This document shows positions 151 to 33,035 of a stretch of DNA of 37,741 nt, one piece after another (position 1 is the stretch's first letter; the number at the start of each line of letters is the position of its first letter). This DNA is from a virus (Duplodnaviria; Heunggongvirae; Uroviricota; Caudoviricetes): IMG/VR virus record IMGVR_UViG_2541047834_000001, one strand, 5' to 3'. The translations under genes and the position numbers were made by a program. The notes under the pieces are model-generated. The model saw nothing but the letters and a program-made list of their open reading frames with translations, did no database searches and was not told where the DNA came from.

Positions 151-165
151 TTACCTTAAAGGTAT
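151..165. promoter_or_regulatory. Operator-like palindrome TTACC-TTAAA-GGTAt upstream of int (imperfect)
   Basis: Member of the ATTACC-N5-GGTAAT family, one mismatch. Confidence 0.35.
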
Positions 166-207
166 ACTCTCATACCGTCATGAAAATGGTTTCTATACGG
201 GTGAATT

Positions 208-1458
208 GTGCTTACCGATACAAAATTAAAGAACCTCAAGCCACAGGACAAACTGTACAAAGTTTCCGATCGTGACGGGCTGTATGTAGCTGTGCTTACG
301 TCAGGTACGGTCTCGTTTCGCTATGACTACCGTATCAACGGTCGCCGCGAAACACTGGTAATCGGGCAGTATGGGCGTGACGGTATCAGCCTGGCAGAAG
401 CGCGAGAAGAACTGATTGCTGCAAAGAAGCTGCTTAAAGCAGGCCAGTCACCGGCTGCGGCTAAACGTGACGGTATCAAAAAGATTCGTGGTGCCGAGAC
501 GTTTGCGGTACATACCGACAGTTATATGAAACACGTCATCCTGGCTGACAGTACCCGCGCAATGAAACAGGCGGTGATCGACCGTGACATACTTCCGACT
601 CTTGGCAATAAAATGATGGCTGAAATTACCACATCGATGGTTCGTGATTTGTGTGACCGGATTGTCGAACGCGGTGGCCGGGCAACAGCAGTGCAGGCCA
701 GGGAGATCATCAGTAGCGTATACCGTCACGCCAATGACCGTGGTCATGGTTTGTTTAATCCTGCGGCTGACATTAAACCTTCGTCTATCGCCATATTTAA
801 ACCACGAGAGCGAACACTGACACCAGAAGAAATTGGCCTGTTCTTCCGCACGCTGGATGCCATTGGTGCTATGGGCACTATGAAAATGGCTTTAAAACTG
901 GTGCTTATCACTATGGTTCGTAAGGGCGAATTCACCAATGCAACGTGGGATGAAATAGATTTTAAAAAATGGACATGGACAATTCCTCCAGACCGCATGA
1001 AGGGAAGCCGGGCGCACGTTATTTACCTGCCTAAACAGGCACAGGATATATTGGTCGGGTTGCAGATGTGCGCTGGTGGAAGTGAATATCTGGTTCCTGG
1101 TCGTTACAATTTCCGGAAGCCATTATCTAATGCCGCGCTAAACTCTCTGATCGACAGAACGGTGAAAATAATAAATGAAGATGGTGAGCATATTCAGGAC
1201 TTCACTGTACATGATATGCGCCGTACAGCCAGTACGTTGTTGCATGAGGCTGGTTATCCTTCAGACTGGATTGAAAAGGCTCTGGCACATGAGCAGAAAG
1301 GTGTGCGCGCCGTATATAACAAAGCGGAATACGCCAGACAGCGCGCCTACATGTTGCAGCAGTGGGCCGATATGATTGATTCATGGATTGACGGGGAGCA
1401 TACGGATCTGATTCCGTTCTCCCCGTCGAAGTTTGAGAAGTGGATGGCGGGGGAATAA
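208..1458 (+). CDS. int: Tyrosine site-specific integrase (P4-type phage integrase family)
   Basis: 416-aa ORF next to attL; N-terminal arm-binding-like region (YVAV..FRYDYRINGRRE) and C-terminal catalytic region with HDMRRT (HxxR) and RAVYNKAEY (Tyr nucleophile region). Confidence 0.9.
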   Translation: MLTDTKLKNLKPQDKLYKVSDRDGLYVAVLTSGTVSFRYDYRINGRRETLVIGQYGRDGISLAEAREELIAAKKLLKAGQSPAAAKRDGIKKIRGAETFAVHTDSYMKHVILADSTRAMKQAVIDRDILPTLGNKMMAEITTSMVRDLCDRIVERGGRATAVQAREIISSVYRHANDRGHGLFNPAADIKPSSIAIFKPRERTLTPEEIGLFFRTLDAIGAMGTMKMALKLVLITMVRKGEFTNATWDEIDFKKWTWTIPPDRMKGSRAHVIYLPKQAQDILVGLQMCAGGSEYLVPGRYNFRKPLSNAALNSLIDRTVKIINEDGEHIQDFTVHDMRRTASTLLHEAGYPSDWIEKALAHEQKGVRAVYNKAEYARQRAYMLQQWADMIDSWIDGEHTDLIPFSPSKFEKWMAGE

Positions 1459-1461
1459 CGT

Positions 1462-1656
1462 TTAATAGTTCTGCTGATTTTCTTCCATCTCTGCTTCTGC
1501 TGCCAGTGATTCAATTTTGTTTTCGAATATTGCTGACAGTGTTGCAAATTCAGCATCAGTGACAGCGGGAATTGGAACAAACCTGATCCCGCTGTGTGCA
1601 AGCATGTTTGCAGTTTCAAGGCATTTTCTTAAATCTGCTGGTGATGCCCTGTTCAT
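1462..1656 (-). CDS. Hypothetical small protein (64 aa), last gene of leftward early operon
   Basis: ATG at 1656 overlaps the TGA stop of the upstream methyltransferase gene (ATGA coupling); convergent with int. Confidence 0.45.
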   Translation of the reverse strand: MNRASPADLRKCLETANMLAHSGIRFVPIPAVTDAEFATLSAIFENKIESLAAEAEMEENQQNY

Positions 1657-2303
1657 GCAGCACGCTCCCGTCCCTGGTTGTCTGTTGGTGACAGCGGAGC
1701 ATTGCTGAATGCATTTGTTAATCCGCCAATATCCAACGCGTATCCAGGGTGTAGTTGCACTGCCGGGTCTTCGCACTGATTACCCCAAACATCGAAGCCA
1801 TGAGACGTCTGGCGGGCGAACAGTTCAATGCGAGAAACATCGCCTAATAATTGCACAAGTTTTTCACGAACGATATCTGGCTTTCTTGAATGCTCAAGCC
1901 GCGGTGCGGTAAATGACTGAACGATCCCTGCATTAATGCGCGTAGGTAGTTTTCCCTTTACCGCAAACAGGCAATCTTCACTATTGGCGCGAGTCATGTG
2001 TCCCATACCCATAACAAGTTTATCTGGTTGTCGACTACCACATTTTATCCACGTGAAGCCCTTCATCGTCATCAGACGGAATCCCCAGGCTTCAACAACT
2101 TTTAGTGCTTCGAGTGGTTGTGTTGGCACCCACCACATGGCCAACAGACAGTTTTCATCGGCCAAATCCCACACAGGAAGGCGGCAGATATCCAGCACAC
2201 TCATAACCGGATATTTAAAACCGGCACCGCGATTACCATCTGCGGCTTTGTCCCGGTATACCCAGGGTGGATCTGCATAGATTAGTGTGTATTTCTTAGT
2301 CAT
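1653..2303 (-). CDS. DNA N6-adenine methyltransferase (DPPW motif; MT-A70 / phage Dam-like)
   Basis: N-terminus MTKKYTLIYADPPWVY carries the DPPW catalytic motif; ATG at 2303 preceded by GGGGTGG RBS; ORF extends to a GTG at 2315. Confidence 0.75.
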   Translation of the reverse strand: MTKKYTLIYADPPWVYRDKAADGNRGAGFKYPVMSVLDICRLPVWDLADENCLLAMWWVPTQPLEALKVVEAWGFRLMTMKGFTWIKCGSRQPDKLVMGMGHMTRANSEDCLFAVKGKLPTRINAGIVQSFTAPRLEHSRKPDIVREKLVQLLGDVSRIELFARQTSHGFDVWGNQCEDPAVQLHPGYALDIGGLTNAFSNAPLSPTDNQGRERAA

Positions 2304-2595
2304 AAACCACCCCACAACATCCTATGCCGCTATAGTCGCCACGGCGAAGGCCGTTACCTTTTGTGATACATTGGTCCCTGCGAACCGCGATCCTTGCACG
2401 CTCAACATCACCAGAAGCAACATCCATACACTGAAGCCAAAGGTAGGCGGCAATTCGGAATTGCCCTTTTTTCTCTCTTTCAATCGCGCGTTTTTCGATC
2501 TCTATCGCCGCAGGAGTAACGGCGACAATCTTTGACGGACTGCGCATTGAAACCTTATTCATGTGATATTTTTCAAGTCGGCTTAACTTTCTCAC
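2296..2595 (-). CDS. Hypothetical protein (99 aa)
   Basis: ORF in leftward operon; GTG start with GAGGG upstream; 8-nt overlap with methyltransferase start. Confidence 0.4.
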   Translation of the reverse strand: MRKLSRLEKYHMNKVSMRSPSKIVAVTPAAIEIEKRAIEREKKGQFRIAAYLWLQCMDVASGDVERARIAVRRDQCITKGNGLRRGDYSGIGCCGVVYD

Positions 2596-2704
2596 TTAAT
2601 CCAACCCTCTCTGAAAATTAATGCCAGCAGATAAAGCCATGCTGAAACAGAGGCCAGGAATAAGTACCATCCTGACCATTTGCTCCAGTGTCTTAGCAGC
2701 ACAC

Positions 2705-2953
2705 TCATGCAGCGTTGCTCACAGGACGATATACACGTTGCTGAACAGGAGGTTTTTTACCCTGGAACTCTGCCGGGCTTGCTGCCTGACGTTCATCAAG
2801 CCAACGCTCAACTTCGTCACGGTTCCATGCGCAGCGTTTGTCGGTGATATACCAGCGTTTAGGAAATTCCCCTGCGCGCTCCATACGGTCGATAGTGCTC
2901 CATGACAGTGGCACCACCGCCAGGAGTTCCTTCTTACCTAATGCACCTTTCAT
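2705..2953 (-). CDS. AlpA-family phage regulatory protein / excisionase (MerR-like HTH)
   Basis: 82 aa; LLAVVPLSWSTIDRMERAGEFPKRWYITDKRCAWNRDEVERWLDER matches the AlpA/Xis pattern. Confidence 0.8.
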   Translation of the reverse strand: MKGALGKKELLAVVPLSWSTIDRMERAGEFPKRWYITDKRCAWNRDEVERWLDERQAASPAEFQGKKPPVQQRVYRPVSNAA

Positions 2954-3002
2954 AAATACCTCTCTTGGTTGCAGTGCGGCGCGCGTGGCGCCGCGGTGGT
3001 GG

Positions 3003-4702: not shown

Positions 4703-4998
4703 GCCGCGTCCCTCTGCCCATCAATCTGATCAGCCAGATCCCAGCGGGCGATAATTGCCATTGCCTCGCGCCGGTAGGCATCCATTAGTTCTTCGAACTC
4801 AGGGCTGTCTTTAGCGGCCTCCAGTACTTCCTGGCGAACGCCTTTAACTGTTACAACGTCGAAAGTTGATGCCAGTTGATGAAGCCGGATACTCTCAATC
4901 AGTTCAACTTGTCGGTCATATAGCTGTTCTGACAGGCTGTAGTCCTTGTCGAATGCCAGCATGATTTTTTGAAGATTTTTCTGCTGATTAACGTTCAT
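4699..4998 (-). CDS. Hypothetical early protein (about 99 aa)
   Basis: ATG at 4998 preceded by GGGAGGG RBS; stop overlaps exonuclease start (ATGA). Confidence 0.55.
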   Translation of the reverse strand: MNVNQQKNLQKIMLAFDKDYSLSEQLYDRQVELIESIRLHQLASTFDVVTVKGVRQEVLEAAKDSPEFEELMDAYRREAMAIIARWDLADQIDGQRDAA

Positions 4999-5001
4999 TA
5001 T

Positions 5002-5153
5002 CAGCCCTCCCATATCTCGTTATCGTTGGCCACATCGCGAGCTTCTTTGCTGACGAAAGCCCACTTAATGCCTTCCTGTAAGGTGCGGAACTTCCAGCTC
5101 ATGAATCCGCATGCAGTAACGCAGTACCAACCGTTGATGATTTTCCACTGCAT
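5002..5153 (-). CDS. Hypothetical small Cys/Trp-containing protein (50 aa), first gene of leftward operon
   Basis: MQWKIINGWYCVTACGFMSWKF...; GAGG RBS 8 nt upstream; not in supplied ORF track (under size cutoff). Confidence 0.35.
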
Positions 5154-5172
5154 AACTTGTTACCTCGGTCTG

Positions 5173-5187
5173 TTACCGTTGAGGTAA
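5173..5187. promoter_or_regulatory. Operator-like palindrome TTACC-GTTGA-GGTAA (leftward early promoter region)
   Basis: Perfect half-sites; adjacent extra TTACC at 5160. Confidence 0.5.
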
Positions 5188-5234
5188 TAATTATGCGTAT
5201 TTGGTTTGGTGTCAATAGATATGAGTTAAAAAAA

Positions 5235-5249
5235 TTACCCTTAAGGTAA
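5235..5249. promoter_or_regulatory. Operator-like palindrome ATTACC-CTTAA-GGTAAT
   Basis: Perfect 17-bp palindrome frame. Confidence 0.5.
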
Positions 5250-5261
5250 TTGCGCAGGCAA

Positions 5262-5286
5262 TAAAAAAGCCGCCAGAAGGCGGCTT
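5262..5286 (-). terminator. Rho-independent terminator downstream of the repressor gene
   Basis: GCCGCC-TTCT-GGCGGC hairpin followed by TTTTTT on the minus strand. Confidence 0.6.
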
Positions 5287-5306
5287 ACTTACTGAAAAAT
5301 ATGATT

Positions 5307-5891
5307 TTATTGTTTGTTTTTTTCGTTCTGGTTGATGACAAATTCAATGTAACTTTCGATCTTTGCTTTCTCGGTTTCGGGTAACAATGCGTAGCGCGAG
5401 CGGTCATAGTTGATGGTCGCAGGGTCGTGCGGGTGAATCAGTAATTCATAGCCGTGACGCCCGAATGCGGATGCAACATTCTCCAGGGTGGAAATGGAAA
5501 CGCTGACCTCATTGTTTAACAGGCGGCTGATTGTCACCTGGGCGACGCCGGATGCGCGGTGAAGTTTTCCCTGTGTTGAAAGGTCGCGGCTTTCGCTCAT
5601 CCAGCGTTCCAGGTTGTGAGCCGCCAGCTGACCAATGTCGCTTGGGCCGACAGGCTGAAAACCTTCCTGAGAAAGCGAGCGATCGATATCAAGCCAGTTA
5701 CGGGGTTTATTGGCGGCAGCTTCAATTTTTCGCGCAACCTGGTCGCCGATAACCTTCTTGCCAAGAGCCCAGCGGTTTACCAGATTTGCCTGAGTTCCAA
5801 GTTTTTCTGCCATCCGCGTCTGAACACCATTGAATTCACGGTCGATCAAGTCGTTGAGATTTTGCCTGCGGACGTCCTGGATACTTTTCAT
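5307..5891 (-). CDS. Putative immunity repressor with two HTH (XRE-like) domains
   Basis: 194 aa; two helix-turn-helix-like segments (TRMAEKLGTQANLVNRWALGKK and ASGVAQVTISRLLNNEVSVSISTLENVA); divergent from a Cro-like gene across an operator-rich intergenic region. Confidence 0.65.
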   Translation of the reverse strand: MKSIQDVRRQNLNDLIDREFNGVQTRMAEKLGTQANLVNRWALGKKVIGDQVARKIEAAANKPRNWLDIDRSLSQEGFQPVGPSDIGQLAAHNLERWMSESRDLSTQGKLHRASGVAQVTISRLLNNEVSVSISTLENVASAFGRHGYELLIHPHDPATINYDRSRYALLPETEKAKIESYIEFVINQNEKNKQ

Positions 5892-5946
5892 TTTCTGGAA
5901 AATCGCCTCATATATGAATCAGTAGATGATTCAATTTAAAGCAATA

Positions 5947-5999
5947 TTACCCAACAGGTAAATGCACCCCATAGGTAACTATCCTTGATTTTTGTTACC
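5947..5999. promoter_or_regulatory. Divergent promoter/operator region between repressor and cro-like gene
   Basis: TTACC-CAACA-GGTAA (5947-5961) plus inverted repeat CCCATAGGTAAC / GTTACCTTATGGG (5969-6006). Confidence 0.5.
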
Positions 6000-6045
6000 T
6001 TATGGGTGAATATTTATTATCTGAAATAAATATCAGGCAATAGCT

Positions 6046-6276
6046 ATGAGCGATAACGGACATTTCGATTTCAAAAAGCACTGGCTTGCACTTACTCCGG
6101 ATGAGCGTGAAGCCTTCGCACAGGAAGCCGGAACGACGAGTCATTATATCCAGACTCACTTAACAGGTAAGCGCAAAATGCCAGGTAAAGTATTGATGAA
6201 TGGGCTTTTTAAAGCCTGTAAAACAAGACAATGGTTGCGCTCAAAAGCAGAACTGGCATACTTCTTCTACTCATGA
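6046..6276 (+). CDS. Cro / YdaS-like HTH regulator
   Basis: 76 aa; TSHYIQTHLTGKRKMPGKVL resembles the Cro/YdaS family; divergent to the repressor. Confidence 0.65.
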   Translation: MSDNGHFDFKKHWLALTPDEREAFAQEAGTTSHYIQTHLTGKRKMPGKVLMNGLFKACKTRQWLRSKAELAYFFYS

Positions 6277-6298
6277 TATCCAGCTACAACCCTCTGTA

Positions 6299-6320
6299 GA
6301 CCGCCACCCGGCGGTCTTTT
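6299..6320 (+). terminator. Rho-independent terminator (tR1-like) after cro-like gene
   Basis: GACCGCC-ACCC-GGCGGTC hairpin followed by TTTT. Confidence 0.65.
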
Positions 6321-6331
6321 CATATCTATTC

Positions 6332-6346
6332 GTACCTCAAAGGTAA
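6332..6346. promoter_or_regulatory. Operator-like palindrome gTACC-TCAAA-GGTAA
   Basis: One mismatch; just after cro terminator. Confidence 0.4.
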
Positions 6347-6426
6347 TAAAAAACCAAATGTGGTTGATCTTTTTTTTGTGTCAGCACAAAATGACCGTAA
6401 TCCCAATACCAATAACAGGGCTTACC

Positions 6427-6627
6427 ATGGAAATCATTACACGTATTGATGCCGCAAAGCGCGGACTTAAACGCTACTACACCGGAAAAACATGTAAGCA
6501 CGGACATGACAGTGAACGCTGGGTTTACAACGGACACTGTGTTGAGTGCACCATGGAATCAAACCGTCGTATCAGGGCAGAGATTAAGCAGATCATGATT
6601 AATTCCTCCCCACAACATTCAAGCTGA
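6427..6627 (+). CDS. Small zinc-finger-like protein (CxxH...CxxC)
   Basis: MEIITRIDAAKRGLKRYYTGKTCKHGHDSERWVYNGHCVEC...; ATG at 6427; in-frame ORF extends upstream to 6358. Confidence 0.5.
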   Translation: MEIITRIDAAKRGLKRYYTGKTCKHGHDSERWVYNGHCVECTMESNRRIRAEIKQIMINSSPQHSS

Positions 6628-6642
6628 TAGCGGAGATTAATC

Positions 6643-7458
6643 ATGAGCAGACATGCAACAGATTGGGCCTGGGAGACAGATCCAGGTAGCTCGTCATTAA
6701 AGCTCATACTGCTCTCGATGGCTGACAGAGCCGATGAATATAACCTCTGCTACCCCAGCATAGAACGCCTCGTTAAAGACACTTGCCTGAATAAAAAAAC
6801 CGTGCAGGCCGGACTTATATCGCTCATGAAAATGGGGCTTATTTCAGATACCGGAGAGAGAAAGGGAGCGACGAAAAGAGTGCGGGTTTTCTCTCTTAAT
6901 ATAACCAAAAACGGGAACATTAAAGGCAACCGGGAGGGGGGTAATGAACCCGAAAACGGTAATGTTCCCGAAAACGGGAATATACCCAAAAACGGGATGT
7001 TGAATGATCCCAAAAACGGGATGTTGAATGATCCCAAAAACGGGATCCAGAACCAGTCATATAACCAGTCATTTAACCAAGAGAGGGAGAGCAGGACAAA
7101 AACCGGGGATTCTGTGCCTCATGACCCAGGCGCAAACAACGCCGTGATGAATAACTTTGTTCCTCCTGGTGGGCCAGGGCAATTAGGCAAATTTGTCATG
7201 CATGAACAATGGCAGCCATCAGATGACTTTCTTCGGAAAAGCTCATTGCAGGGGATCTACCTGGACAGTCTGCCAACGGCACAGGAACTTGCAGAGTTCA
7301 GAATTTACTGGATGGCTGAGGGTAAGGCATACCATCAGGCACAGTGGGAGCAGAAGCTGGCAAGGCGGCTGCAGATTAGCAGACAGAAGCAATCAACATT
7401 ACCTGATAACAACGTTCCGCACTGGAACAGCCCTGAAGCATGGGAGGATTTCTTGTGA
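6643..7458 (+). CDS. Replication initiation protein, lambda O-like (iteron-containing)
   Basis: 271 aa directly upstream of and coupled to the P-like gene; embedded iteron-like repeats; GGAG RBS. Confidence 0.65.
   Translation: MSRHATDWAWETDPGSSSLKLILLSMADRADEYNLCYPSIERLVKDTCLNKKTVQAGLISLMKMGLISDTGERKGATKRVRVFSLNITKNGNIKGNREGGNEPENGNVPENGNIPKNGMLNDPKNGMLNDPKNGIQNQSYNQSFNQERESRTKTGDSVPHDPGANNAVMNNFVPPGGPGQLGKFVMHEQWQPSDDFLRKSSLQGIYLDSLPTAQELAEFRIYWMAEGKAYHQAQWEQKLARRLQISRQKQSTLPDNNVPHWNSPEAWEDFL
6904..7045. repeat. Iteron-like direct repeats CC(C/A)(A/G)AAAACGGGA, six copies; candidate replication origin
   Basis: Copies at about 6904, 6948, 6967, 6985, 7009, 7033; last two within a perfect 24-bp tandem duplication (6996-7019 / 7020-7043). 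Confidence 0.6.
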
Positions 7459-8240
7459 ACAACGTTTTTACCGCGATACAAAACCGTGACGGAGAAGCCC
7501 TTTCTCGCATGTCAGGTTATGAGCATCAGTACACCAACAATGACAACGTAGTGAACATGTCAGCAGAGAGGCTTGTTGATGCCCTTTTCAAACAGCTGAA
7601 ACAACTGTTTCCGGCGGCAGTGGTAACCAACCTGAAGACGCCAGAGCAGGAAGTTGCTGCAAAACAGCAGTGGATTGCTGCGTTTGCTGAAGGGGGGATC
7701 CGAACCCGTGAACAGGTTTCTGCTGGTATGCGCCACGCTCGCGCCAGTGAATCTCCGTTCTGGCCGTCGCCAGGGCAATTTATCAAGTGGTGCAAAGACA
7801 GCAAGATGGTTCTTGGCGTCACCATTGACGATGTGATGGCGGAGTTTCACCGGTACAGCAAGGAAAAAAGTTTATATCCTGGTGGTCCCGAAAGATTCCC
7901 GTGGCGACATCCGGTTATGTACTGGGTCGTATGTGATACCCGCCGCGCAATGTATCAGCGCCAGCTTAGCGAGATTGAGGTTGAGAAACACGCGCGCAGG
8001 CTGCTCGATGATTGGGCGAAAAAGGTGGCTTCCGGACAGCAGATACCCGATCCGGTGATCAGCATACAGGCAAAGCCAGAACCCATGAGTACGCCTCCGG
8101 ACACAGGGAGAGACGTTTACCATCCACCAGGGCGAAGTTTCGGGTGTATGCCTAACGCCGCCACCCTGGGGGGAATAACACCGGCGCAGTGGCTGATGGA
8201 GGAATACAGGCGGGGAAAGGCGGCAGGATTTATCAAGTAA
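7440..8240 (+). CDS. Replication protein P-like (DnaB helicase loader)
   Basis: QQWIAAFAEGGIRTREQVSAGMRHARASESPFWPSPGQFIKWCKD parallels lambda P (RRQWVLAFRENGITTMEQVNAGMRVARRQNRPFLPSPGQFVAWCRE); alternative GTG start at 7455 overlaps the O-like stop. Confidence 0.85.
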   Translation: MGGFLVNNVFTAIQNRDGEALSRMSGYEHQYTNNDNVVNMSAERLVDALFKQLKQLFPAAVVTNLKTPEQEVAAKQQWIAAFAEGGIRTREQVSAGMRHARASESPFWPSPGQFIKWCKDSKMVLGVTIDDVMAEFHRYSKEKSLYPGGPERFPWRHPVMYWVVCDTRRAMYQRQLSEIEVEKHARRLLDDWAKKVASGQQIPDPVISIQAKPEPMSTPPDTGRDVYHPPGRSFGCMPNAATLGGITPAQWLMEEYRRGKAAGFIK

Positions 8241-8245
8241 TACCA

Positions 8246-8270
8246 GCGCGATAGCGCATTTTTTTACGCC
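8246..8270 (+). terminator. Weak terminator-like hairpin after P-like gene
   Basis: GCGC-GATA-GCGC followed by ATTTTTTTA; short stem. Confidence 0.35.
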
Positions 8271-8277
8271 CACGTAA

Positions 8278-8292
8278 TTACCTAGTGGGTAA
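8278..8292. promoter_or_regulatory. Operator-like palindrome ATTACC-TAGTG-GGTAAT
   Basis: Perfect half-sites; downstream of P-like gene. Confidence 0.5.
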
Positions 8293-8339
8293 TAAAATGT
8301 TCTAACGTCTATTGATTTCATGTCTTATGTGGTTTTTAA

Positions 8340-8354
8340 TTACCTAAGGGGTAA
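8340..8354. promoter_or_regulatory. Operator-like palindrome ATTACC-TAAGG-GGTAA
   Basis: Directly upstream of ATG 8358; preceded by TATGTGGTTTTTAA. Confidence 0.5.
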
Positions 8355-8357
8355 ATC

Positions 8358-8702
8358 ATGAGAAAACAGATACAGGCTCTTGGTCGGCTCAAAACAGGCC
8401 AGATGAACAAAACAGAATCTGCGTATTGCCAGCACCTTGAGCAGCGTAAACGTGCAGGGGAAGTCGCCTGGTATCGGTTCGAGGGTATCAAGCTGCGGCT
8501 GGCTGACAACACGTTTTATACGCCCGATTTCGCTGTGATGCTCGCCACCGGAGAGATGGAACTGCACGAAGTGAAAGGTTTCTGGACCGACGACGCCAGG
8601 GTGAAAACCAAAGTCGCCGCAGATCAGTATCCGTTCCGAATCATCGGGGTAACGGTTAAACCAAAGAAAGCAGGTGGTGGCTGGAATATCGAAGAGTTCT
8701 GA
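8358..8702 (+). CDS. Phage protein, DUF1064-like
   Basis: 114-aa ORF with AGGGG RBS; assignment from recalled family pattern, unverified. Confidence 0.5.
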   Translation: MRKQIQALGRLKTGQMNKTESAYCQHLEQRKRAGEVAWYRFEGIKLRLADNTFYTPDFAVMLATGEMELHEVKGFWTDDARVKTKVAADQYPFRIIGVTVKPKKAGGGWNIEEF

Positions 8703-8763
8703 ATCGACGATCTTTTTAGTTATCAATGTAATCAATAAGTTATGTGGATAAGCGAGGGTAAAG

Positions 8764-9435
8764 ATGGAAAGTAATATCAAAGGGTTAGTTTCCGCCGGGC
8801 ATGAGATGGCTTCGGAACTGAAAGCAGAATGTGGTGCCGTTGATATGCGTAGTGTGGCAAAGCTGATCAGCGATTTGGCAACGCAACTGGAAGTGCAACT
8901 GGTGCGTGCTAATGCGCTGGCGGCGGAGAATGCGAGACTGAAGGCCGGGGCTATGTATTTCTCATATGGCTCTGAATTTAGTTTCGAGTGTCACAAAACT
9001 GCTGAGGAGGCTATCGCTGCTGCTGAGGCTGCAATTGACGACTATAGAGGCGATGCTTGCGATGGATGGAGCGAAGAGGTCGAAAGCATTTGCTGGGGGG
9101 TAATTATTCAGCAGGCAACCAAGGTCGGTGAACGCAAGAAGAGGAAATGCGACAGAGTATCACCATGGATTGAAAGAGTTTGTGATTATGAGCTTCGACC
9201 TAATGTCGAAACCCCAGCCACCGATGCTTTCCTGTCTGAAGTGCGGGCGCAGGGGGTGGATGCTGCCATAGAAGCTGCAAAAAATCTGGTGGCCCAAGAA
9301 TATGAGTATAAGGATTTCAAAGCGGCGCAGAGTGATTGCTGTATGCACCCTGGTTCAGACCTGGTAGGGAAGGTTGAAATGACTGAGTGGTTAGTTGACT
9401 TTGCTGCCCAGCTTCGCAAAGGAGGCAACCAGTGA
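8764..9435 (+). CDS. Hypothetical protein (223 aa)
   Basis: ORF with GAGGG RBS; Cys-containing, Ala/Glu-rich. Confidence 0.55.
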   Translation: MESNIKGLVSAGHEMASELKAECGAVDMRSVAKLISDLATQLEVQLVRANALAAENARLKAGAMYFSYGSEFSFECHKTAEEAIAAAEAAIDDYRGDACDGWSEEVESICWGVIIQQATKVGERKKRKCDRVSPWIERVCDYELRPNVETPATDAFLSEVRAQGVDAAIEAAKNLVAQEYEYKDFKAAQSDCCMHPGSDLVGKVEMTEWLVDFAAQLRKGGNQ

Positions 9436-12226: not shown

Positions 12227-12500
12227 CCTGCAACTTGCCGTTAAAGGTGAATACTTCGATGCCATGATTCGCGGAGAGAAAACGGAAGAGTATCGCTTGT
12301 GTAATGACTACTGGAATAAGCGAATTATGTTACGCGAGTATGACCGCCTGATTATCACAAAGGGATATCCGAAGCGCGACGACTCCAGTCGCAGAATTGA
12401 TGTTCCGTATGGAGGGTATGAAATCAAGACAATCACACATCCGCACTTCGGCGATAAACCGGTAAATGTGTTCGCGATAAAGGTAAATATTGATGGCTAA
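12219..12500 (+). CDS. ASCH / DUF3850-like protein
   Basis: GTG start with AAGGAGGAAGG RBS; LAVKGEYFDAMIRGEKTEEYR resembles the ASCH-like pattern (recalled, unverified). Confidence 0.55.
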   Translation: MANLQLAVKGEYFDAMIRGEKTEEYRLCNDYWNKRIMLREYDRLIITKGYPKRDDSSRRIDVPYGGYEIKTITHPHFGDKPVNVFAIKVNIDG

Positions 12501-12831
12501 ATCAGCAGCAGAGCGCAAAGCCGCTCAGAGAGCCAGACAAGCTGCATCTGGTGTGCGTAAGCTGGAAATTGTGCTTGATGCTCAGGAAATTGAAATGCTG
12601 GAGCGTAACTGTGCCACGCGTCGCCCCGGGCGTGCGCCTTACGAATTTGGTGAGTATATAGCGTTACTGATCCGCCAGGATGATGCACGCGTGCGCGGGC
12701 GTATAAAATCGATCAGCAGAAAACGTTGCGGTAAGTGCGGCGAGAGAGTTCCAGTTAATTCATGCCCGTGCAATGGTGACTCGCAATGCTGGGTGACTAA
12801 AGGCTGGCATGAAACGAAATTAATAGTGTGA
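12493..12831 (+). CDS. Zinc-ribbon protein (CxxC...CxC), candidate late-gene regulator
   Basis: Basic N-terminus, C-terminal RKRCGKCGERVPVNSCPCNGDSQC; last early gene before terminator and terminase genes. Confidence 0.5.
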   Translation: MAKSAAERKAAQRARQAASGVRKLEIVLDAQEIEMLERNCATRRPGRAPYEFGEYIALLIRQDDARVRGRIKSISRKRCGKCGERVPVNSCPCNGDSQCWVTKGWHETKLIV

Positions 12832-12839: not shown

Positions 12840-12880
12840 GAGTAGATTATGCATGATGAATTTGATGTGTTTTGAATACT

Positions 12881-12906
12881 GCCGCCAACTATGGCGGCTT
12901 TATTTT
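12881..12906 (+). terminator. Rho-independent terminator upstream of terminase genes (tR'-like)
   Basis: GCCGCCA-ACTA-TGGCGGC hairpin followed by TTTATTTT. Confidence 0.65.
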
Positions 12907-12917
12907 GCATGGTACTA

Positions 12918-12932
12918 TTACCACAACGGTAA
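12918..12932. promoter_or_regulatory. Operator-like palindrome TTACC-ACAAC-GGTAA before terminase genes
   Basis: Immediately 3' of terminator 12881-12906; followed by second TTACC and GGTtA. Confidence 0.45.
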
Positions 12933-12949
12933 CTATTACCACGGTGGTT

Positions 12950-13546
12950 ATGATGCCTGCTGAACCTAAAACCTATAAACGCAAATCAACGCAATTTAAG
13001 CCGCTCACAGCAATGCAGGAGGCTTATTGCCAGTCATACATCAAAACGCCTGAAAACCAGACTCAGGCAGCGATTAATGCAGGATTCTCCCCAAATACAG
13101 CGGCAGTTAAAGCCAGTGTCATGATGCGCGATGAACGCATTCAAAAACGGATTGCCGAGTTGATGGAGGAGCGCAACAAACGAATGCGCGTCAGTGCTGA
13201 TTACGTTCTCATGCGCCTGGTGGAGATCGACCAGATGGACGTGATCGACATCCTCAACGACGATGGGAGCCTTAAGCCAATCCGCGAGTGGCCGAAAATC
13301 TGGCGCACTACGCTTAGCGGCTTTGATCTGTCATCGACCATCATGAACATGAACGAGGATTCGATAGAGACAATCCTCAAAAAAATTAAATGGCCTGACA
13401 AGGTGAAGAACCTCGAACTGATTGGTAAGCACGTCGACGTCAACGCATTCAAAGAACGCCTGGATGTTAATGTGAATGTGACAATTGCTGATCGCATAGC
13501 AGCAGCCAGGAAGCGACTCAAAGAACGTCAGGATGGTAATCAGTGA
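12950..13546 (+). CDS. Terminase small subunit
   Basis: LTAMQEAYCQSYIKTPENQTQAAINAGFSPNTAAVKASVMMRDERIQKRIAELMEE typical of small terminase subunits; coupled (GTGA) to large subunit; in-frame ORF extends to 12872 but that region contains the terminator. Confidence 0.7.
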   Translation: MMPAEPKTYKRKSTQFKPLTAMQEAYCQSYIKTPENQTQAAINAGFSPNTAAVKASVMMRDERIQKRIAELMEERNKRMRVSADYVLMRLVEIDQMDVIDILNDDGSLKPIREWPKIWRTTLSGFDLSSTIMNMNEDSIETILKKIKWPDKVKNLELIGKHVDVNAFKERLDVNVNVTIADRIAAARKRLKERQDGNQ

Positions 13547-16010: not shown

Positions 16011-16078
16011 AAAGCTCACTCCACCTGTTCAATTTAACGACAAGCCAGTCAGGTTAATAACCGGAATGAACCCTTTGC

Positions 16079-16093
16079 TTACCTGAAAGGTAA
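16079..16093. promoter_or_regulatory. Operator-like palindrome TTACC-TGAAA-GGTAAT between tRNA cassette and portal operon
   Basis: Perfect half-sites in a divergent intergenic region. Confidence 0.5.
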
Positions 16094-16183
16094 TAATTTG
16101 TGCGTTAAATGTCAACTATCTACGATAAATAAATCATATGTGGTTAAATTGGTAATAATTTAATTGCGTACGGAGTCATTGAT

Positions 16184-19083: not shown

Positions 19084-20076
19084 ATGACAATGGCTGTTAA
19101 AGGCTTAACTGCGCTAACGCTGGCTGACTGGGGTAAGCGCGTCGATCCAAATGGGAAAGTCGATAAGATTATCGAGCTTCTCAATCAAACTAACCCAATT
19201 CTTCAGGATATGCCTTTTGTTGAAGGAAACCTTCCTACCGGACACCGAACCACCATTCGTTCTGGTTTACCTTCTGCTACCTGGCGTTTGCTGAACTATG
19301 GCGTACAGCCAAGCAAATCAACCACGGTGCAGGTCACCGATTCCGTTGGCATGCTGGAAACCTATGCTGAAGTCGATAAGTCACTGGCTGATCTGAACGG
19401 CAATACCGCCGAATTCCGCCTGTCTGAAGACCGCGCATTTATTGAAGCGATGAATCAGCAGATGGCGCAGACGCTGTTTTATGGTGATTCCAGCGTTAAC
19501 CCTCAGCAGTTTATGGGACTGTCCTCCCGCTATTCCAGCCTGTCTGCGGGTAATGCTCAGAACATCATTGATGCTGGTGGCACGGGTACAGATAACACCT
19601 CAATCTGGTTAGTGGTGTGGGGCGAAAACACCGTGCATGGCATCTTCCCGAAAGGGCAGAAGGCTGGCATCCAGATGGAAGATAAAGGCCAGGTGACACT
19701 GGAAGATGCTAATGGCGGCAAGTACGAAGGCTATCGCACCCATTACAAATGGGATAACGGACTTGCTCTGCGTGACTGGCGTTATGTTGTTCGCATTGCA
19801 AACATCGATGTCAGCAATCTTTCAGAACCTTCCTCTGCCGCAAATATTGCGAAGTTGATGGTTAAAGCACTGCATCGCATTCCGAACCGTGGCATGGGGC
19901 GCCCGGTGTTCTACATGAACCGCACTGTAGGCCAGGCTCTTGATTTGCAGTCTCTGGAGAAAACATCTCTGGCGATCAGCGTAAAAGAGACTGAAGGCGA
20001 GTGGTGGACGTCATTCCGTGGTGTACCAATCCGTGAAACTGATGCGCTTCTGGAAACAGAAGCCCGCGTGGTGTAA
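19084..20076 (+). CDS. Major capsid protein
   Basis: 330 aa immediately after scaffold gene, followed downstream by a strong terminator; AGAGAGGA RBS. Confidence 0.75.
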   Translation: MTMAVKGLTALTLADWGKRVDPNGKVDKIIELLNQTNPILQDMPFVEGNLPTGHRTTIRSGLPSATWRLLNYGVQPSKSTTVQVTDSVGMLETYAEVDKSLADLNGNTAEFRLSEDRAFIEAMNQQMAQTLFYGDSSVNPQQFMGLSSRYSSLSAGNAQNIIDAGGTGTDNTSIWLVVWGENTVHGIFPKGQKAGIQMEDKGQVTLEDANGGKYEGYRTHYKWDNGLALRDWRYVVRIANIDVSNLSEPSSAANIAKLMVKALHRIPNRGMGRPVFYMNRTVGQALDLQSLEKTSLAISVKETEGEWWTSFRGVPIRETDALLETEARVV

Positions 20077-29682: not shown

Positions 29683-29687
29683 ATTAA

Positions 29688-32162
29688 ATGAGACAGGAAT
29701 GTATACAAGCGGTCCAGCAGGCGGCGCAGCGCACGTTAACGGCGCGAGAAATACAGAACATTGAAGACCGCATTTATCGAAATATGCGCTCCATTGCTCG
29801 TGATGACCCGATGTCGTGGAGACAACTTTCCGAATCAGAGCGGCTATATCGTGCAGCACAATTGGCATCTGAAGAATTACAGCGAGAAGCGGCATTAAAG
29901 AAACGTCGTGTGGCCCTCACTATAGCCGCACGTCAGAGATTGGATAAATTTATCAATAGCTATCAAGGGGCTGATGGGAAACTTGGCGCTCTTAACCGTA
30001 CTATTGCTTTTAATGCAGACGGTAAATCGAATTTCCTCTCTGTTGAATCCAGAACAAAAGCCACTCGTGATTATGCATTGAGTCAATTGCAGGAGGCATT
30101 CGAAGCAGTTGATCCTCGCTTTTTTGGTCTGTTTGAAGATGAAGCGGGCGTACGTGACCTGGTATATGAAATGCGAGGGCAAAATACTGGCAATGCTAAA
30201 GCAAGAAAAGGTGCTAAGGCGTGGAGAGAAGTGACAGAGCTACTGCGCCGCCGGTTTAATGATGCTGGTGGGGACATTGGCTATCTCGAAAACTGGGGGC
30301 TCCCTCAACATCATTCTATGGAAAAGGTTGGGGCGGTATCAAAGGATAAGTGGGTTAGCGATGTTATAGGTAAGCTGGATCGCAAATATTATACCCGAGC
30401 CGATGGACAACTGATGAACGATGCCGAGTTGTCTGCATTTCTTGGAGAGGCTTATAACACGATCGCTACTGGTGGGCTGAATAAGCTTACTGATACCGGA
30501 ATGCGAATTTCCGGCGCACGTGCTAACCGGGGTAATGCATCACGACAGATACATTTCAAAGATGCAGATTCCTATCTGCAATATCAGCAACTTTATGGCG
30601 ATCGCTCTCTATGGGAAATCATGGTCGGTCACCTGGAAGGTATCAGTAAAGATATTGCACTGGTGGAAACATATGGCCCAAACCCCGATCATGTTTTCCG
30701 CTCTCTTCTTGATCAGGTGAAGGCAGAAACGGCAACAGCTAACCCGAGTAAAACCGGTAAAGTCGAGCGGCTGGCGAACAACACAGAGAATCTGTACAAC
30801 TTTATTTCCGGAAAGACACAGCCTGTAGCGAATCCGCACATCGCGCGATGGTCTGACAATATTCGCAACTGGCTGGTTGCCAGCAGACTCGGATCCGCGT
30901 TGCTGTCATCGTTCTCTGATCTTGGAACCATGTATCTGTCTGCGAAGGTTACCAACCTTCCAATGAACCAGTTATTCCGCAACCAGCTTGAAGCTATGGA
31001 CCCAACGAACCGTACAGAACTTGCGCGGGCGCGCCGCGCTGGTCTGGCGATGGAATCTCTACTTGGCAGCGTTAACCGCTGGGCGATGGATAATATGGGG
31101 CCGTCAGTGTCTCGTTGGGCGGCAACGGCGGTAATGCGTGCCAGTGGGCTTACAGCATGGTCAGATGCGCACAAGCGCGCCTATGGCGTAACCATGATGG
31201 GAAGCCTGGGAGAAGTAGTGTCACGAACACCAGACCTTCGTAGCCTCGATGACTCTGATTTTCGTATCCTGAAAAGCAAAGGGATTACTGACACAGACTG
31301 GAGCGTATGGAAGCTGGCGCAACAGGAGGACTGGGGGAACGGTAATAATACGATGCTGACACCGGAAAGCATTATGCGTATCCCTGATTCAGCAGTTAAA
31401 CATCTTGGTGAGCCTGAACGCGTGAAATTTGAGGCAATGCGTAAACTGCTCGGTGCCGTAACTGAAGAAGTTGATATGGCTGTTATTACACCGGGAGCAC
31501 GTGAGCAACTGATAACCGGTTCTGGTATTCAGCGTGGAACATGGAAAGGTGAATTAACGAGAAGTGTTTTCCTGTTTAAATCGTTCCCTATCTCGGTTGT
31601 TATGCGTCACTGGTCACGCGCTATGGGTATGCCGTCTGCTGGTGGGCGTGCGGCATATATTGCGACGTTTATTGCCAGTACGACCATTCTTGGCGCTTTG
31701 TCGCAACAACTTAACGACCTTGCGTCTGGTCGTAATCCTCGAGAGATGACAGGAGAAGATGCCGCAAAATTCTGGCTTGGTGCTCTACTGAAAGGTGGTG
31801 GTCTTGGCCTTTATGGTGACTTTTTATTGTCAGATCACACTAGGTACGGAAGCGGCGCGCTGGCGTCGATGCTTGGCCCGGTAGCTGGTCTGGTTGATGA
31901 CGTAGTGAAGATTGCTCAGGGCATACCGTTAAATGCTGTGGAAGGGAAGAGTGAGCAGACTGGTGGTGATCTGGTGAAGCTGGGGAAAGGTTTGATGCCA
32001 GGTGCGAATCTCTGGTACTTGAAGGCGGCTCTCGATCACATGATCTTTAATCAGATGCAGGAGTATTTTTCACCAGGCTATTTGCGTAAAATGGAGCAAC
32101 GTTCGAAGAAAGAGTTTAACCAGACATACTGGTGGCGACCTCAGGATGTCACTCCGCAATAA
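29688..32162 (+). CDS. Internal virion / ejection protein (gp16-like, large)
   Basis: 824 aa; synteny. Confidence 0.65.
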   Translation: MRQECIQAVQQAAQRTLTAREIQNIEDRIYRNMRSIARDDPMSWRQLSESERLYRAAQLASEELQREAALKKRRVALTIAARQRLDKFINSYQGADGKLGALNRTIAFNADGKSNFLSVESRTKATRDYALSQLQEAFEAVDPRFFGLFEDEAGVRDLVYEMRGQNTGNAKARKGAKAWREVTELLRRRFNDAGGDIGYLENWGLPQHHSMEKVGAVSKDKWVSDVIGKLDRKYYTRADGQLMNDAELSAFLGEAYNTIATGGLNKLTDTGMRISGARANRGNASRQIHFKDADSYLQYQQLYGDRSLWEIMVGHLEGISKDIALVETYGPNPDHVFRSLLDQVKAETATANPSKTGKVERLANNTENLYNFISGKTQPVANPHIARWSDNIRNWLVASRLGSALLSSFSDLGTMYLSAKVTNLPMNQLFRNQLEAMDPTNRTELARARRAGLAMESLLGSVNRWAMDNMGPSVSRWAATAVMRASGLTAWSDAHKRAYGVTMMGSLGEVVSRTPDLRSLDDSDFRILKSKGITDTDWSVWKLAQQEDWGNGNNTMLTPESIMRIPDSAVKHLGEPERVKFEAMRKLLGAVTEEVDMAVITPGAREQLITGSGIQRGTWKGELTRSVFLFKSFPISVVMRHWSRAMGMPSAGGRAAYIATFIASTTILGALSQQLNDLASGRNPREMTGEDAAKFWLGALLKGGGLGLYGDFLLSDHTRYGSGALASMLGPVAGLVDDVVKIAQGIPLNAVEGKSEQTGGDLVKLGKGLMPGANLWYLKAALDHMIFNQMQEYFSPGYLRKMEQRSKKEFNQTYWWRPQDVTPQ

Positions 32163-32171
32163 GGAAGTGTT

Positions 32172-32345
32172 GTGTTTTTAATTATTTTGAGTGTGATAAT
32201 TTCTGGTGGATTGTTATTTATTGACCGCTACAAATATTTTCTTAACCCTCAGACTCAAGCTATTTGCTGGTTCATCTTTGTTGTGCAGGGAGTAGTTCTT
32301 GTTGCAAGCCTTATTGAGGGGAGGCCTCTTATTTTTACTGGGTAA
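32172..32345 (+). CDS. Small hydrophobic membrane protein (57 aa), AT-rich moron
   Basis: GTG start 4 nt after AAGGAAG; VFLIILSVIISGGLLFIDRYKYFLNPQTQAICWFIFVVQGVVLVASLIEGRPLIFTG; about 30% GC; not in ORF track (size cutoff). Confidence 0.4.
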   Translation: MFLIILSVIISGGLLFIDRYKYFLNPQTQAICWFIFVVQGVVLVASLIEGRPLIFTG

Positions 32346-32357
32346 ATAGGTGACTAC

Positions 32358-32654
32358 ATGCAAGCTATAGGATTCATTGTTTATATCGTCGTTGGTCTTT
32401 TTCAGTTGGCAGCAATTATGGCTGGGCTTGAATCATGGTGGGGATTGCACTGGATAATTGCAGCCCCCATTGCTTTCATCGTGAGCTATATTCCATTTGT
32501 TGGAGCGATTGTTGGTATGGTTGGCGCTGTGGATGTATGGCGGTGGGAGTGGTGGCAGGCTGGCCTTCTCTTCTTTGGTGGGATCATCTTTGCTATTGTC
32601 TGCGGTGGAATGTCATCATTTTTCGAATGGCTATCATTCAGAAAAGGGACGTGA
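32358..32654 (+). CDS. Trp-rich integral membrane protein (98 aa, about 3 TM)
   Basis: Hydrophobic segments; stop embedded in GTGACATGTCAC palindrome; followed by terminator. Confidence 0.55.
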   Translation: MQAIGFIVYIVVGLFQLAAIMAGLESWWGLHWIIAAPIAFIVSYIPFVGAIVGMVGAVDVWRWEWWQAGLLFFGGIIFAIVCGGMSSFFEWLSFRKGT

Positions 32655-32662
32655 CATGTCAC
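32651..32662. promoter_or_regulatory. Perfect 12-bp palindrome GTGACATGTCAC (copy 3)
   Basis: Overlaps stop codon of membrane-protein gene; terminator hairpin starts 2 nt downstream. Confidence 0.45.
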
Positions 32663-32663
32663 A

Positions 32664-32688
32664 GGCCGCTTTCGCGGCCTTTAAATTT
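32664..32688 (+). terminator. Terminator hairpin GGCCGC-TTTC-GCGGCC + TTTAAATTT
   Basis: Perfect 6-bp GC stem with T-rich tail; between convergent genes. Confidence 0.55.
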
Positions 32689-32962
32689 ACCGGGTTTGTT
32701 TTCGTAATTGTTCGGCACAATAGTCGAGATGTGTTTGCAGATCCTGCATAGACATCTGTGAGCTGGTGACATAGTTAATCAGTGCAGTCAGTTCGGCAAG
32801 TGGGCCATCGACATTAAATCCATCCTTATCGAGATCCCGGAGTAATTTCATCAAGTGCGATCCCTCCACCAGTGACCTGACGCCTCCCGGCGTGTGAATC
32901 CTTTCGGTAAATCCGTCTTCCAGTGGATAGTGATACTGCTGCATCTTATCTTCTCCATGCAA
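32687..32962 (-). CDS. Hypothetical soluble protein (91 aa), reverse-oriented moron with own promoter region
   Basis: Only minus-strand gene in the structural module; upstream intergenic 32963-33139 contains an ATTACC-N5-GGTAAT site. Confidence 0.55.
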   Translation of the reverse strand: MHGEDKMQQYHYPLEDGFTERIHTPGGVRSLVEGSHLMKLLRDLDKDGFNVDGPLAELTALINYVTSSQMSMQDLQTHLDYCAEQLRKQTR

Positions 32963-33020
32963 TAACTGTATATTTATACAGTATCAAATAATTTGTTTGC
33001 TATCCAGCACGTTTTGCAAA

Positions 33021-33035
33021 TTACCCGAAAGGTAA
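33021..33035. promoter_or_regulatory. Operator-like palindrome ATTACC-CGAAA-GGTAAT between moron gene and tail fibre gene
   Basis: Perfect half-sites; followed at 33067 by TATGTGGTTTTTAA. Confidence 0.5.

What the first reader, a model, noticed from the sequence alone, without database searches (positions are those of the whole stretch)
151..33035. A single palindrome, ATTACC-N5-GGTAAT, recurs at 10 promoter-proximal sites in every module of the prophage
Sites: 151 (before int, imperfect), 5173 and 5235 (leftward early promoter region), 5947 (repressor/cro intergenic, plus a related GGTAAC-N16-GTTACC inverted repeat at 5974-5999), 6332 (after cro terminator, one mismatch), 8278 and 8340 (after the P-like gene), 12918 (between late terminator and terminase), 16079 (between tRNA cassette and portal), 33021 (between moron gene and tail fibre). 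All are intergenic. A fixed 10-nt palindrome frame is expected well under 0.1 times by chance in 37.7 kb. The spread across early, replication, late and tail promoters suggests one dimeric DNA-binding protein (the tandem-HTH repressor or another phage factor) or a phage-specific promoter element coordinating the whole genome, which is unlike the usual OL/OR-only operator layout of lambdoid phages.
Basis: partly seen in the sequence, partly recalled or inferred. Interest (0 to 1): 0.75.

Follow-up and report, generated by a model that had tools for sequence, protein, structure and literature searches.

The report
Repressor operators of an epsilon15-like prophage
The repeated palindrome is real and strongly conserved, but it is the binding site already annotated for the main repressor of epsilon15/phiV10-type phages, so this is a rediscovery of a known regulatory layout.

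Summary
TTACC-N5-GGTAA occurs 8 times perfectly and 4 times with one mismatch; shuffles give 0.53 at that stringency. All 12 sites lie in the roughly 7% of the window that is non-coding.

The window is a complete phiV10/epsilon15-type podovirus prophage (genus Uetakevirus), running from att core to att core. It is not a lambdoid phage.

The public epsilon15 records already annotate this same palindrome as a repressor-binding site at seven dispersed places:
- before the small terminase gene,
- before the portal cluster,
- before the tail fibre gene,
- three times at the leftward early promoter,
- after the replication genes.

The window's 194-aa repressor is a full-length homologue of Salmonella phage SPC32H Rep (PDB 5D50), and its recognition helix NLVNRW is invariant. 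An Ant antirepressor homologue with a perfect LexA box is also present.

Motif, positions and spacings are conserved in 11 genomes from eight host genera and in 117 viral contigs. The spacings are a triple site at OR, 62-bp pairs bracketing two early promoters, and an 18-bp pair at the terminase gene.

The most likely mechanism is that tetrameric Rep silences every transcription unit directly, and LexA-controlled Ant releases them together. Direct binding was not tested here. The site at 151 is ambiguous.

A second, unannotated palindrome, AACCATATATGGTT, accompanies several operators. It is the only possibly new item.

The parts
5307..5891 (-). Rep, the prophage repressor (194 aa); the presumed binder of the palindrome
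   Evidence: Full-length match to SPC32H Rep, PDB 5D50 (E 4e-42). The recognition helix NLVNRW is invariant in 5 orthologues that share only 42-78% identity. It is 100% identical to the ZX5 ORF21 repressor, whose overexpression removes free phage and cuts holin and endolysin mRNA by more than 99.9%.
5946..5962 (.). OR site a (ATTACCCAACAGGTAAA), nearest to rep
   Evidence: The triple OR site with spacings of 17 and 30/31 bp is conserved in 11 genomes.
5963..5979 (.). OR site b, degenerate (TGCACCCCATAGGTAAC)
   Evidence: Two mismatches. It is placed by orthology with the perfect second site of epsilon15 and SPC32H, 17 bp from site a.
5994..6010 (.). OR site c (GTTACCTTATGGGTGAA), inside the spacer of the predicted rightward promoter (-35 TTGATT 5985-5990, -10 GAATAT 6008-6013)
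   Evidence: CTTGATTTTT and the site are conserved in both sequence groups.
5234..5250 (.). PL distal operator, 62 bp from the proximal one
5172..5188 (.). PL proximal operator. It overlaps the last two bases of the -10 and covers the start-site region of the leftward early promoter (TTGACA 5215-5210, 17 nt, AATTAT 5192-5187, minus strand).
   Evidence: The unit operator-18nt-TTGACA-17nt-(A/G)AT(T/C)AT|TACC is conserved in 11 genomes.
6331..6347 (.). One-mismatch operator (CGTACCTCAAAGGTAAT) after the terminator of the cro-like gene and before gp40 and the replication genes
   Evidence: It is orthologous in phiV10, Tyrion and BUCT711, always imperfect, and more degenerate in epsilon15 and SPC32H.
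8277..8293 (.). Distal operator of the promoter that follows the replication genes
8339..8355 (.). Proximal operator of the same promoter (-35 TTGATT 8312-8317, -10 TTTAAT 8335-8340). Its spacer also holds the ribosome-binding site of the gene starting at 8358.
   Evidence: The 61-63 bp pair is conserved in 11 genomes.
12917..12933 (.). First operator of the terS pair, after the terminator at 12881-12898
   Evidence: It corresponds to the epsilon15 site annotated 'repressor' at 12-27.
12935..12951 (.). Second operator of the terS pair, 18 bp from the first (one mismatch). It overlaps the Shine-Dalgarno GGTGG of terS (ATG 12953).
16078..16094 (.). Single operator upstream of the gp3/portal operon
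   Evidence: It sits at the same offset, with invariant half-sites, in 117 viral contigs giving 79 distinct upstream sequences. It corresponds to epsilon15 2931-2947.
33020..33036 (.). Single operator in the divergent ant / tail-fibre intergenic region
   Evidence: It corresponds to epsilon15 19895-19911.
150..166 (.). Ambiguous near-match (ATTACCTTAAAGGTATA) upstream of int
   Evidence: It carries GGTAT in all 6 genomes and overlaps the integrase arm-type repeat GTGACGGTAT at 142-151. The epsilon15 record annotates this place as integrase and RNase III sites, not as a repressor site.
32687..32944 (-). Ant antirepressor homologue
   Evidence: 88% identical to SPC32H Ant.
32966..32981 (.). LexA box CTGTATATTTATACAG upstream of ant
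   Evidence: Read directly from the sequence. That ant is LexA-controlled in SPC32H (Kim & Ryu 2013) is my recollection and was not verified here.

Best explanation
The palindrome ATTACC-N5-GGTAAT is the operator of Rep, the prophage's own repressor (5307-5891).

Rep belongs to the SPC32H/epsilon15 Rep family. It has an N-terminal HTH DNA-binding domain, a middle dimerisation domain and a C-terminal tetramerisation domain.

In the lysogen, Rep tetramers would occupy operators at every transcription unit:
- Three adjacent sites at OR, one of them inside the -35/-10 spacer of the rightward promoter.
- Two pairs 62 bp apart, about six helical turns. In each pair the proximal site covers -10/+1 and the distal site lies about 60 bp upstream. 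These pairs bracket the leftward early promoter and the promoter after the replication genes. One tetramer carries two pairs of DNA-binding domains, so it could clamp both sites.
- An 18-bp pair over the terS ribosome-binding site.
- Single sites upstream of the portal and tail-fibre units. Relatives also have one before the lysis unit.

Induction would not use repressor cleavage. DNA damage removes LexA from the ant promoter (box at 32966-32981). Ant then dismantles Rep tetramers, and all units are released together.

Shown here: the motif, its statistics, its positions relative to predicted promoters, its conservation, and the homologies of Rep and Ant.
Taken from the literature and from annotation: Rep is the repressor, it is a tetramer, and Ant inactivates it.
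Inferred: that Rep binds each of these sites, that one tetramer bridges the 62-bp pairs, and that the late units are repressed directly.
For: - Statistics and exclusively non-coding location.
- The epsilon15 GenBank and RefSeq records annotate the identical palindrome as protein_bind 'repressor / lysogeny' at 7 dispersed sites.
- Rep is homologous to PDB 5D50 over its full length, and the recognition helix is invariant despite only 42% overall identity.
- Motif, positions and spacings are conserved in Escherichia, Salmonella, Enterobacter, Klebsiella, Citrobacter, Erwinia, Superficieibacter and Scandinavium elements.
- Half-sites are invariant while the N5 spacer and the flanks vary. The spacer is 78% A+T and its central base is almost always A or T. 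This is what a protein site looks like, not an RNA stem.
- Operators overlap the core elements of predicted sigma-70 promoters.
- Five loci whose repressor-like N-terminal domain has a different recognition helix have no perfect site.
- Literature: Rep binds palindromic sites as a tetramer and Ant breaks the tetramer (PMC9638917); the domain layout (PMC9986798); the identical ZX5 repressor shuts off lytic transcription (PMC9782041).
- An Ant homologue and a LexA box are present.
Against: - No binding experiment could be read or run. The primary papers (Kropinski 2007; Kim & Ryu 2013; Kim 2016) are not in the library, so how the epsilon15 annotation was derived is unknown.
- PMC9986798 states that the mechanism of repression by this Rep 'has not been extensively characterized'.
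- No heteroimmune relative was found, so I could not test whether the motif co-varies with the repressor.
- The cro-like protein (6046-6276) could bind the same sites.
- Single operators 50-62 bp upstream of the late units do not overlap an obvious core promoter, so direct repression there is an inference.
- Site 151 may be an integrase arm site instead.
Confidence: 0.85

Rival explanations
1. The sites are bound mainly by another phage regulator, such as the cro-like HTH protein (6046-6276) or the gp49-like regulator (12490-12831). They would then act in the lytic programme rather than in lysogenic silencing.
For: The 76-aa product matches a PHROG family of transcriptional repressors. It is the first gene expressed from the rightward promoter. 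In lambda-type switches Cro shares operators with the repressor (established knowledge).
Against: The epsilon15 record assigns the sites to the repressor. Literature summaries say Rep binds palindromic sites. A second, different palindrome (AACCATATATGGTT) is available as a site for a second regulator. Sharing of the sites by both proteins is not excluded.
Confidence: 0.1
2. The palindrome is an element of a phage-specific promoter, or the binding site of a host transcription factor.
For: Sites lie close to transcription-unit starts, and GGTAAT resembles a weak -10 hexamer.
Against: The position relative to -35/-10 is not fixed: it is in the spacer, over -10/+1, or about 60 bp upstream. The palindrome is symmetric and occurs upstream of units on both strands. 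It travels with the Rep gene across eight host genera.
Confidence: 0.03
3. The palindromes act as RNA hairpins, for example processing, attenuation or nut-like sites.
For: Each can form a stem of 5-7 pairs, mostly with a five-base loop, reminiscent of boxB.
Against: The stems are weak (-3.3 to -5.2 kcal/mol). The half-site sequence is invariant with no compensatory changes across 75 distinct sites. Loop sequences vary freely. Several sites lie upstream of the predicted start site and so would not be transcribed.
Confidence: 0.02

Closest known systems
Repressor-binding sites annotated in Salmonella phage epsilon15 (AY150271.2 / NC_004775.2; Kropinski et al. 2007)
   Same: The palindrome is identical (ATTACC-N5-GGTAAT). 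The places are orthologous: before terS, before the portal cluster, before the tail fibre gene, at the leftward promoter, and after the replication genes.
   Different: The window is a phiV10-type E. coli prophage whose Rep is only 42% identical. The phiV10 record itself carries no operator annotation. The epsilon15 record does not annotate its three OR sites, the second site of the terS pair or the proximal site of the post-replication pair; all of these are also found in epsilon15.
SPC32H Rep-Ant switch (PDB 5D50/5D4Z; Kim & Ryu 2013, Kim et al. 2016)
   Same: Rep is homologous over its whole length. Ant is 88% identical. A LexA box lies before ant. The SPC32H genome carries the same operator set.
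   Different: Nothing functional was tested on this prophage. I could not read which operators were studied experimentally.
Phage P1 C1 repressor with many dispersed operators (my own knowledge)
   Same: One repressor directly controls many scattered transcription units, including late functions.
   Different: P1 operators are asymmetric 17-mers, and C1 is unrelated to Rep.
Mycobacteriophage L5 gp71 'stoperators' (my own knowledge; multiple asymmetric operators are mentioned in the abstract of PMC1934351)
   Same: Repressor sites are spread through the genome, well beyond the immunity region.
   Different: Stoperators are asymmetric, depend on orientation, and lie within transcribed regions to block elongation. 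Here the sites are palindromic and sit at promoters or just after terminators.
Lambda CI with its OL/OR operators, and looping repressors such as pLS20 Rco
   Same: OR is tripartite and lies between divergent repressor and cro-like genes. A tetramerisation domain suited to bridging two operators is present.
   Different: There are additional operators at delayed-early, packaging, head, tail and (in relatives) lysis units. Induction uses an antirepressor rather than RecA-mediated cleavage.

Membership tests
Uetakevirus (epsilon15/SPC32H-type) Rep-operator system | Repressor homologous to SPC32H Rep over its DNA-binding, dimerisation and tetramerisation domains | tested here: met
   phmmer against PDB: 5D50_A, E 4e-42, residues 1-190 of 194.
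Uetakevirus (epsilon15/SPC32H-type) Rep-operator system | Conserved recognition helix in the N-terminal domain | tested here: met
   N36-L37-V38-N39-R40-W41 are invariant in 5 orthologues.
Uetakevirus (epsilon15/SPC32H-type) Rep-operator system | The same palindrome at positions orthologous to the annotated epsilon15 repressor sites | tested here: met
Uetakevirus (epsilon15/SPC32H-type) Rep-operator system | Small Ant antirepressor gene preceded by a LexA box | tested here: met
   Ant is 88% identical to SPC32H Ant. CTGT-N8-ACAG lies at 32966-32981.
Uetakevirus (epsilon15/SPC32H-type) Rep-operator system | Physical binding of Rep to the palindrome | not testable with these tools
   This needs a gel-shift, footprint or ChIP experiment. 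The primary papers are not held.
Lambda-type immunity region (operators only at OL and OR) | Tripartite operator between divergent repressor and cro-like genes | tested here: met
   Sites at 5947, 5964 and 5995.
Lambda-type immunity region (operators only at OL and OR) | Operators restricted to the two early promoters | tested here: not met
   Further sites lie at 6332, 8278/8340, 12918/12936, 16079 and 33021.
Stoperator-type silencing (mycobacteriophage L5) | Asymmetric, orientation-dependent sites inside transcribed regions | tested here: not met
   The sites are palindromic. They overlap core promoters or lie upstream of them.

The most novel reading that the evidence does not exclude
Uetakeviruses may run their whole programme on a two-palindrome code. 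Every unit, including head, tail and lysis, would have its own promoter gated directly by the Rep operator (ACC-N5-GGT core). Next to it would sit a second, unannotated palindrome, AACCATATATGGTT (ACC-N6-GGT core), bound by a second, unidentified phage regulator, for example the cro-like or the gp49-like protein. At the portal, tail-fibre and lysis promoters this second site takes the place of the -35 element. The timing of late genes would then be set by a site-specific activator or repressor rather than by a lambda-Q-type antitermination cascade.
Probability: 0.3. Interest if true: 0.45.

Novelty: already known. Interest (0 to 1): 0.2.

Why it matters
It matters little as a discovery. The same palindrome is publicly annotated as the repressor site of epsilon15, and the repressor-antirepressor pair has solved structures from SPC32H.

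The useful by-products are practical:
- phiV10-type prophages, which are common in E. coli, can now be given a full operator map.
- The conserved 62-bp operator pairs suggest how a tetrameric repressor engages promoters. The cited literature says this mechanism is not well characterised.
- The second palindrome marks candidate late promoters whose regulator is unknown.

Tried and rejected
- I tried to read Kropinski 2007 (PMC2698709, PubMed 17825342), Kim & Ryu 2013 (PMC3807360) and Kim 2016 (PMC4983836). None is held.
- Full-text searches for the motif found nothing relevant.
- I looked for heteroimmune relatives, with the same virion genes but a different repressor, to test whether motif and repressor co-vary. 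None turned up among phage records or among 117 viral contigs.
- The genome-contig search was seeded on the recognition helix, so it could not return variants of that helix. Five distant N-terminal homologues came in through the other seed. They have a different helix and no motif, which is only weak support.
- PDB and Pfam searches on the cro-like and gp49-like proteins gave nothing.
- I considered and rejected these readings:
  - Chance.
  - RNA hairpins.
  - A boxB/nut analogy.
  - A methylase or restriction target, because the sites are exclusively intergenic.
  - A centromere-like set of sites as in N15, because this element integrates and the sites overlap promoters.
  - A DnaA-box reading of the second motif, because it fits only one instance.
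- I could not place the rep promoter with confidence.


Full report

Yes.
- The strict 17-mer ATTACC-N5-GGTAAT occurs 3 times. One hundred dinucleotide-preserving shuffles gave none.
- The 10-base core TTACC-N5-GGTAA occurs 8 times perfectly and 4 more times with one mismatch. Shuffles gave a mean of 0.53 at that stringency.
- All 12 sites fall in non-coding DNA, which is only about 7% of the window. Hits with two mismatches are scattered through coding DNA and behave as noise, with one exception at 5964.
It misses 12936 and the OR sites at 5964 and 5995. The 'GGTAAC-N16-GTTACC' repeat is just the facing halves of those two OR sites.

**2. What is the element?**

- The window matches Escherichia phages phiv142-3 and phiV10 at about 98% identity over the region tested (5000-9000).
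- It runs exactly from one att core (ATTGAGTGGGAATGATT, 1-17) to the other (37725-37741). This is the guaA attachment core reported for phage ZX5.
- It is therefore a complete epsilon15/phiV10-type podovirus prophage (genus Uetakevirus), not a lambdoid phage. Most of it is collinear with phiV10; the 8.9-12.2 kb stretch and the ant/tail-fibre module (about 32.2-35.7 kb) differ.

**3. Is the motif already known?**

- The GenBank and RefSeq records of epsilon15 carry seven protein_bind features labelled 'repressor / lysogeny'.
- I read those coordinates, and every one is ATTACC-N5-GGTAAT.
- They lie before terS, before gp3/portal, before the tailspike gene, three times downstream of the repressor gene, and after the replication gene.
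- The phiV10 record has no such features.
- The primary papers were not available. From memory only, the 2007 epsilon15 genome paper proposed this palindrome as the operator.

**4. Who binds it?**

- The 194-aa product of 5307-5891 aligns over its full length with SPC32H Rep (PDB 5D50, E 4e-42).
- The window Rep is 78% identical to the Tyrion Rep and 43-44% identical to the BUCT711, epsilon15 and SPC32H Reps. The N-terminal recognition helix NLVNRW is invariant in all five. All of these genomes carry the same palindrome.
- Secondary literature gives three facts. Rep has an N-terminal DNA-binding domain, a middle dimerisation domain and a C-terminal tetramerisation domain (PMC9986798). It binds palindromic DNA as a tetramer, with each pair of DNA-binding domains drawn from different dimers. 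A tetrameric antirepressor, Ant, breaks it up (PMC9638917).
- The ZX5 repressor is 100% identical to the window protein. When overexpressed it abolishes free phage and lowers holin and endolysin transcripts by more than 99.9% (PMC9782041).
- The window also encodes an Ant homologue (32687-32944, 88% identical). It is preceded by a perfect LexA box at 32966-32981.

**5. Comparative evidence**

- Eleven genomes and prophages from eight host genera keep the motif and its geometry. The hosts are Escherichia, Salmonella, Enterobacter, Klebsiella, Citrobacter, Erwinia, Superficieibacter and Scandinavium.
- The conserved geometry is:
  - a triple site between rep and the cro-like gene, with spacings of 17 and 30/31 bp;
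  - a pair 61-63 bp apart at the leftward early promoter;
  - a second pair 61-63 bp apart after the replication genes;
  - an 18-bp pair before terS;
  - single sites before the portal unit, the tail fibre gene and (in relatives) the lysis cassette.
- In 117 viral contigs, giving 79 distinct upstream sequences, the portal-upstream operator sits at the same offset. Its half-sites are essentially invariant while the flanks vary.
- Over 75 distinct perfect-core sites the spacer is free but 78% A+T, and its central base is almost always A or T.
- This pattern fits a protein-DNA site. It does not fit an RNA stem: there are no compensatory changes, and the hairpins are weak at -3.3 to -5.2 kcal/mol.

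**6. Anatomy relative to promoters**

- Leftward early promoter and post-replication promoter. All 11 genomes share the unit operator, 18 nt, TTGACA or TTGAnn, 17 nt, then a -10 hexamer whose last two bases are the first two of the proximal ATTACC (the window's PL also). The proximal operator therefore covers about -8 to +9. The distal operator lies 62 bp upstream, about six helical turns.
- OR. The third site lies inside the spacer of the predicted rightward promoter, between TTGATT (5985-5990) and GAATAT (6008-6013).
- terS. The second site overlaps the Shine-Dalgarno sequence.
- These arrangements are classical promoter occlusion. The 62-bp pairs fit a tetramer with two pairs of DNA-binding domains. 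That last point is an inference.

**7. Sites that need care**

- Site 151 has GGTAT instead of GGTAA in all six genomes compared.
- It overlaps the repeat GTGACGGTAT. The epsilon15 record labels the orthologous repeat as an integrase arm site.
- It may be an arm-site cluster rather than an operator, or it may be both.
- The operator found before the lysis cassette in phiV10, epsilon15, SPC32H and Tyrion is absent here. I attribute this to the different tail-fibre module in this prophage.

**8. A second motif**

- Near several operators lies a different palindrome with consensus AACCATATATGGTT. Its core is ACC-N6-GGT, whereas the Rep operator core is ACC-N5-GGT.
- It occurs at 6352, 16132, 33062 and 35753 with at most two mismatches, against 0.135 expected. 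A partial copy lies at 8321-8334.
- It is orthologously conserved and is not annotated in epsilon15.
- Before the portal, tail-fibre and lysis units it is followed after 7 nt by a -10-like hexamer (TAATAA, TAATAG or TATAAT), and there is no recognisable -35.
- In some relatives a copy lies in the spacer of the early promoters.
- Its binder is unknown. The cro-like and gp49-like proteins are candidates, but neither matched any Pfam family or PDB sequence.

**9. Verdict**

- The 'promoter element' alternative is rejected.
- The feature is already known from epsilon15 and SPC32H, so interest is low.
- The residual novelty lies in the conserved 62-bp operator pairs and in the second palindrome.

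Noticed in passing
window 6352-6365, 16132-16145, 33062-33075, 35753-35766 (partial copy at 8321-8334): A second conserved palindrome with consensus AACCATATATGGTT lies 5-40 bp downstream of Rep operators, except at 35753, where the operator is missing in this prophage. There are four sites with at most two mismatches, against 0.135 expected. It is orthologous in phiV10, epsilon15, SPC32H and Tyrion and is not annotated in epsilon15. At the portal, tail-fibre and lysis units it is followed after 7 nt by a -10-like hexamer, with no -35. The binder is unknown.
   Followed up: partly
window 32966-32981 and 32687-32944 (minus strand): A perfect LexA box, CTGTATATTTATACAG, lies directly upstream of a homologue of the SPC32H antirepressor Ant (88% identity). 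This implies SOS induction through an antirepressor rather than through repressor cleavage.
   Followed up: partly
window 1-17 and 37725-37741; 142-151, 377-386, 467-476, 37644-37653 (plus strand) and 720-729 (minus strand): The window is bounded by the 17-bp att core ATTGAGTGGGAATGATT (the guaA site reported for phage ZX5). It carries five copies of GTGACGGTAT, the repeat annotated in epsilon15 as an integrase arm-type site. One copy overlaps the doubtful 'operator' at 150-166.
   Followed up: partly
window about 6966-7060, inside the O/DnaT-like gene 6643-7458: Four direct repeats of CCC(A/G)AAAACGGGA(T/A) occur here, two of them within identical 24-bp units. They look like origin iterons.
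   Followed up: no
window 12872-12955: The phiV10-style start of terS (TTG at 12872) would place a strong terminator (12881-12898) and two operators inside the gene. The conserved start is the ATG at 12953, as annotated in epsilon15 and Tyrion.
   Followed up: partly
window 33263-35753 and 32165-32687: The tail-fibre module and the region before ant differ from phiV10. A 98-aa gene of unknown function (32358-32654) replaces the Bro-N gene of phiV10. The Rep operator that precedes the lysis cassette in relatives is missing here.
   Followed up: partly
   Followed up: yes
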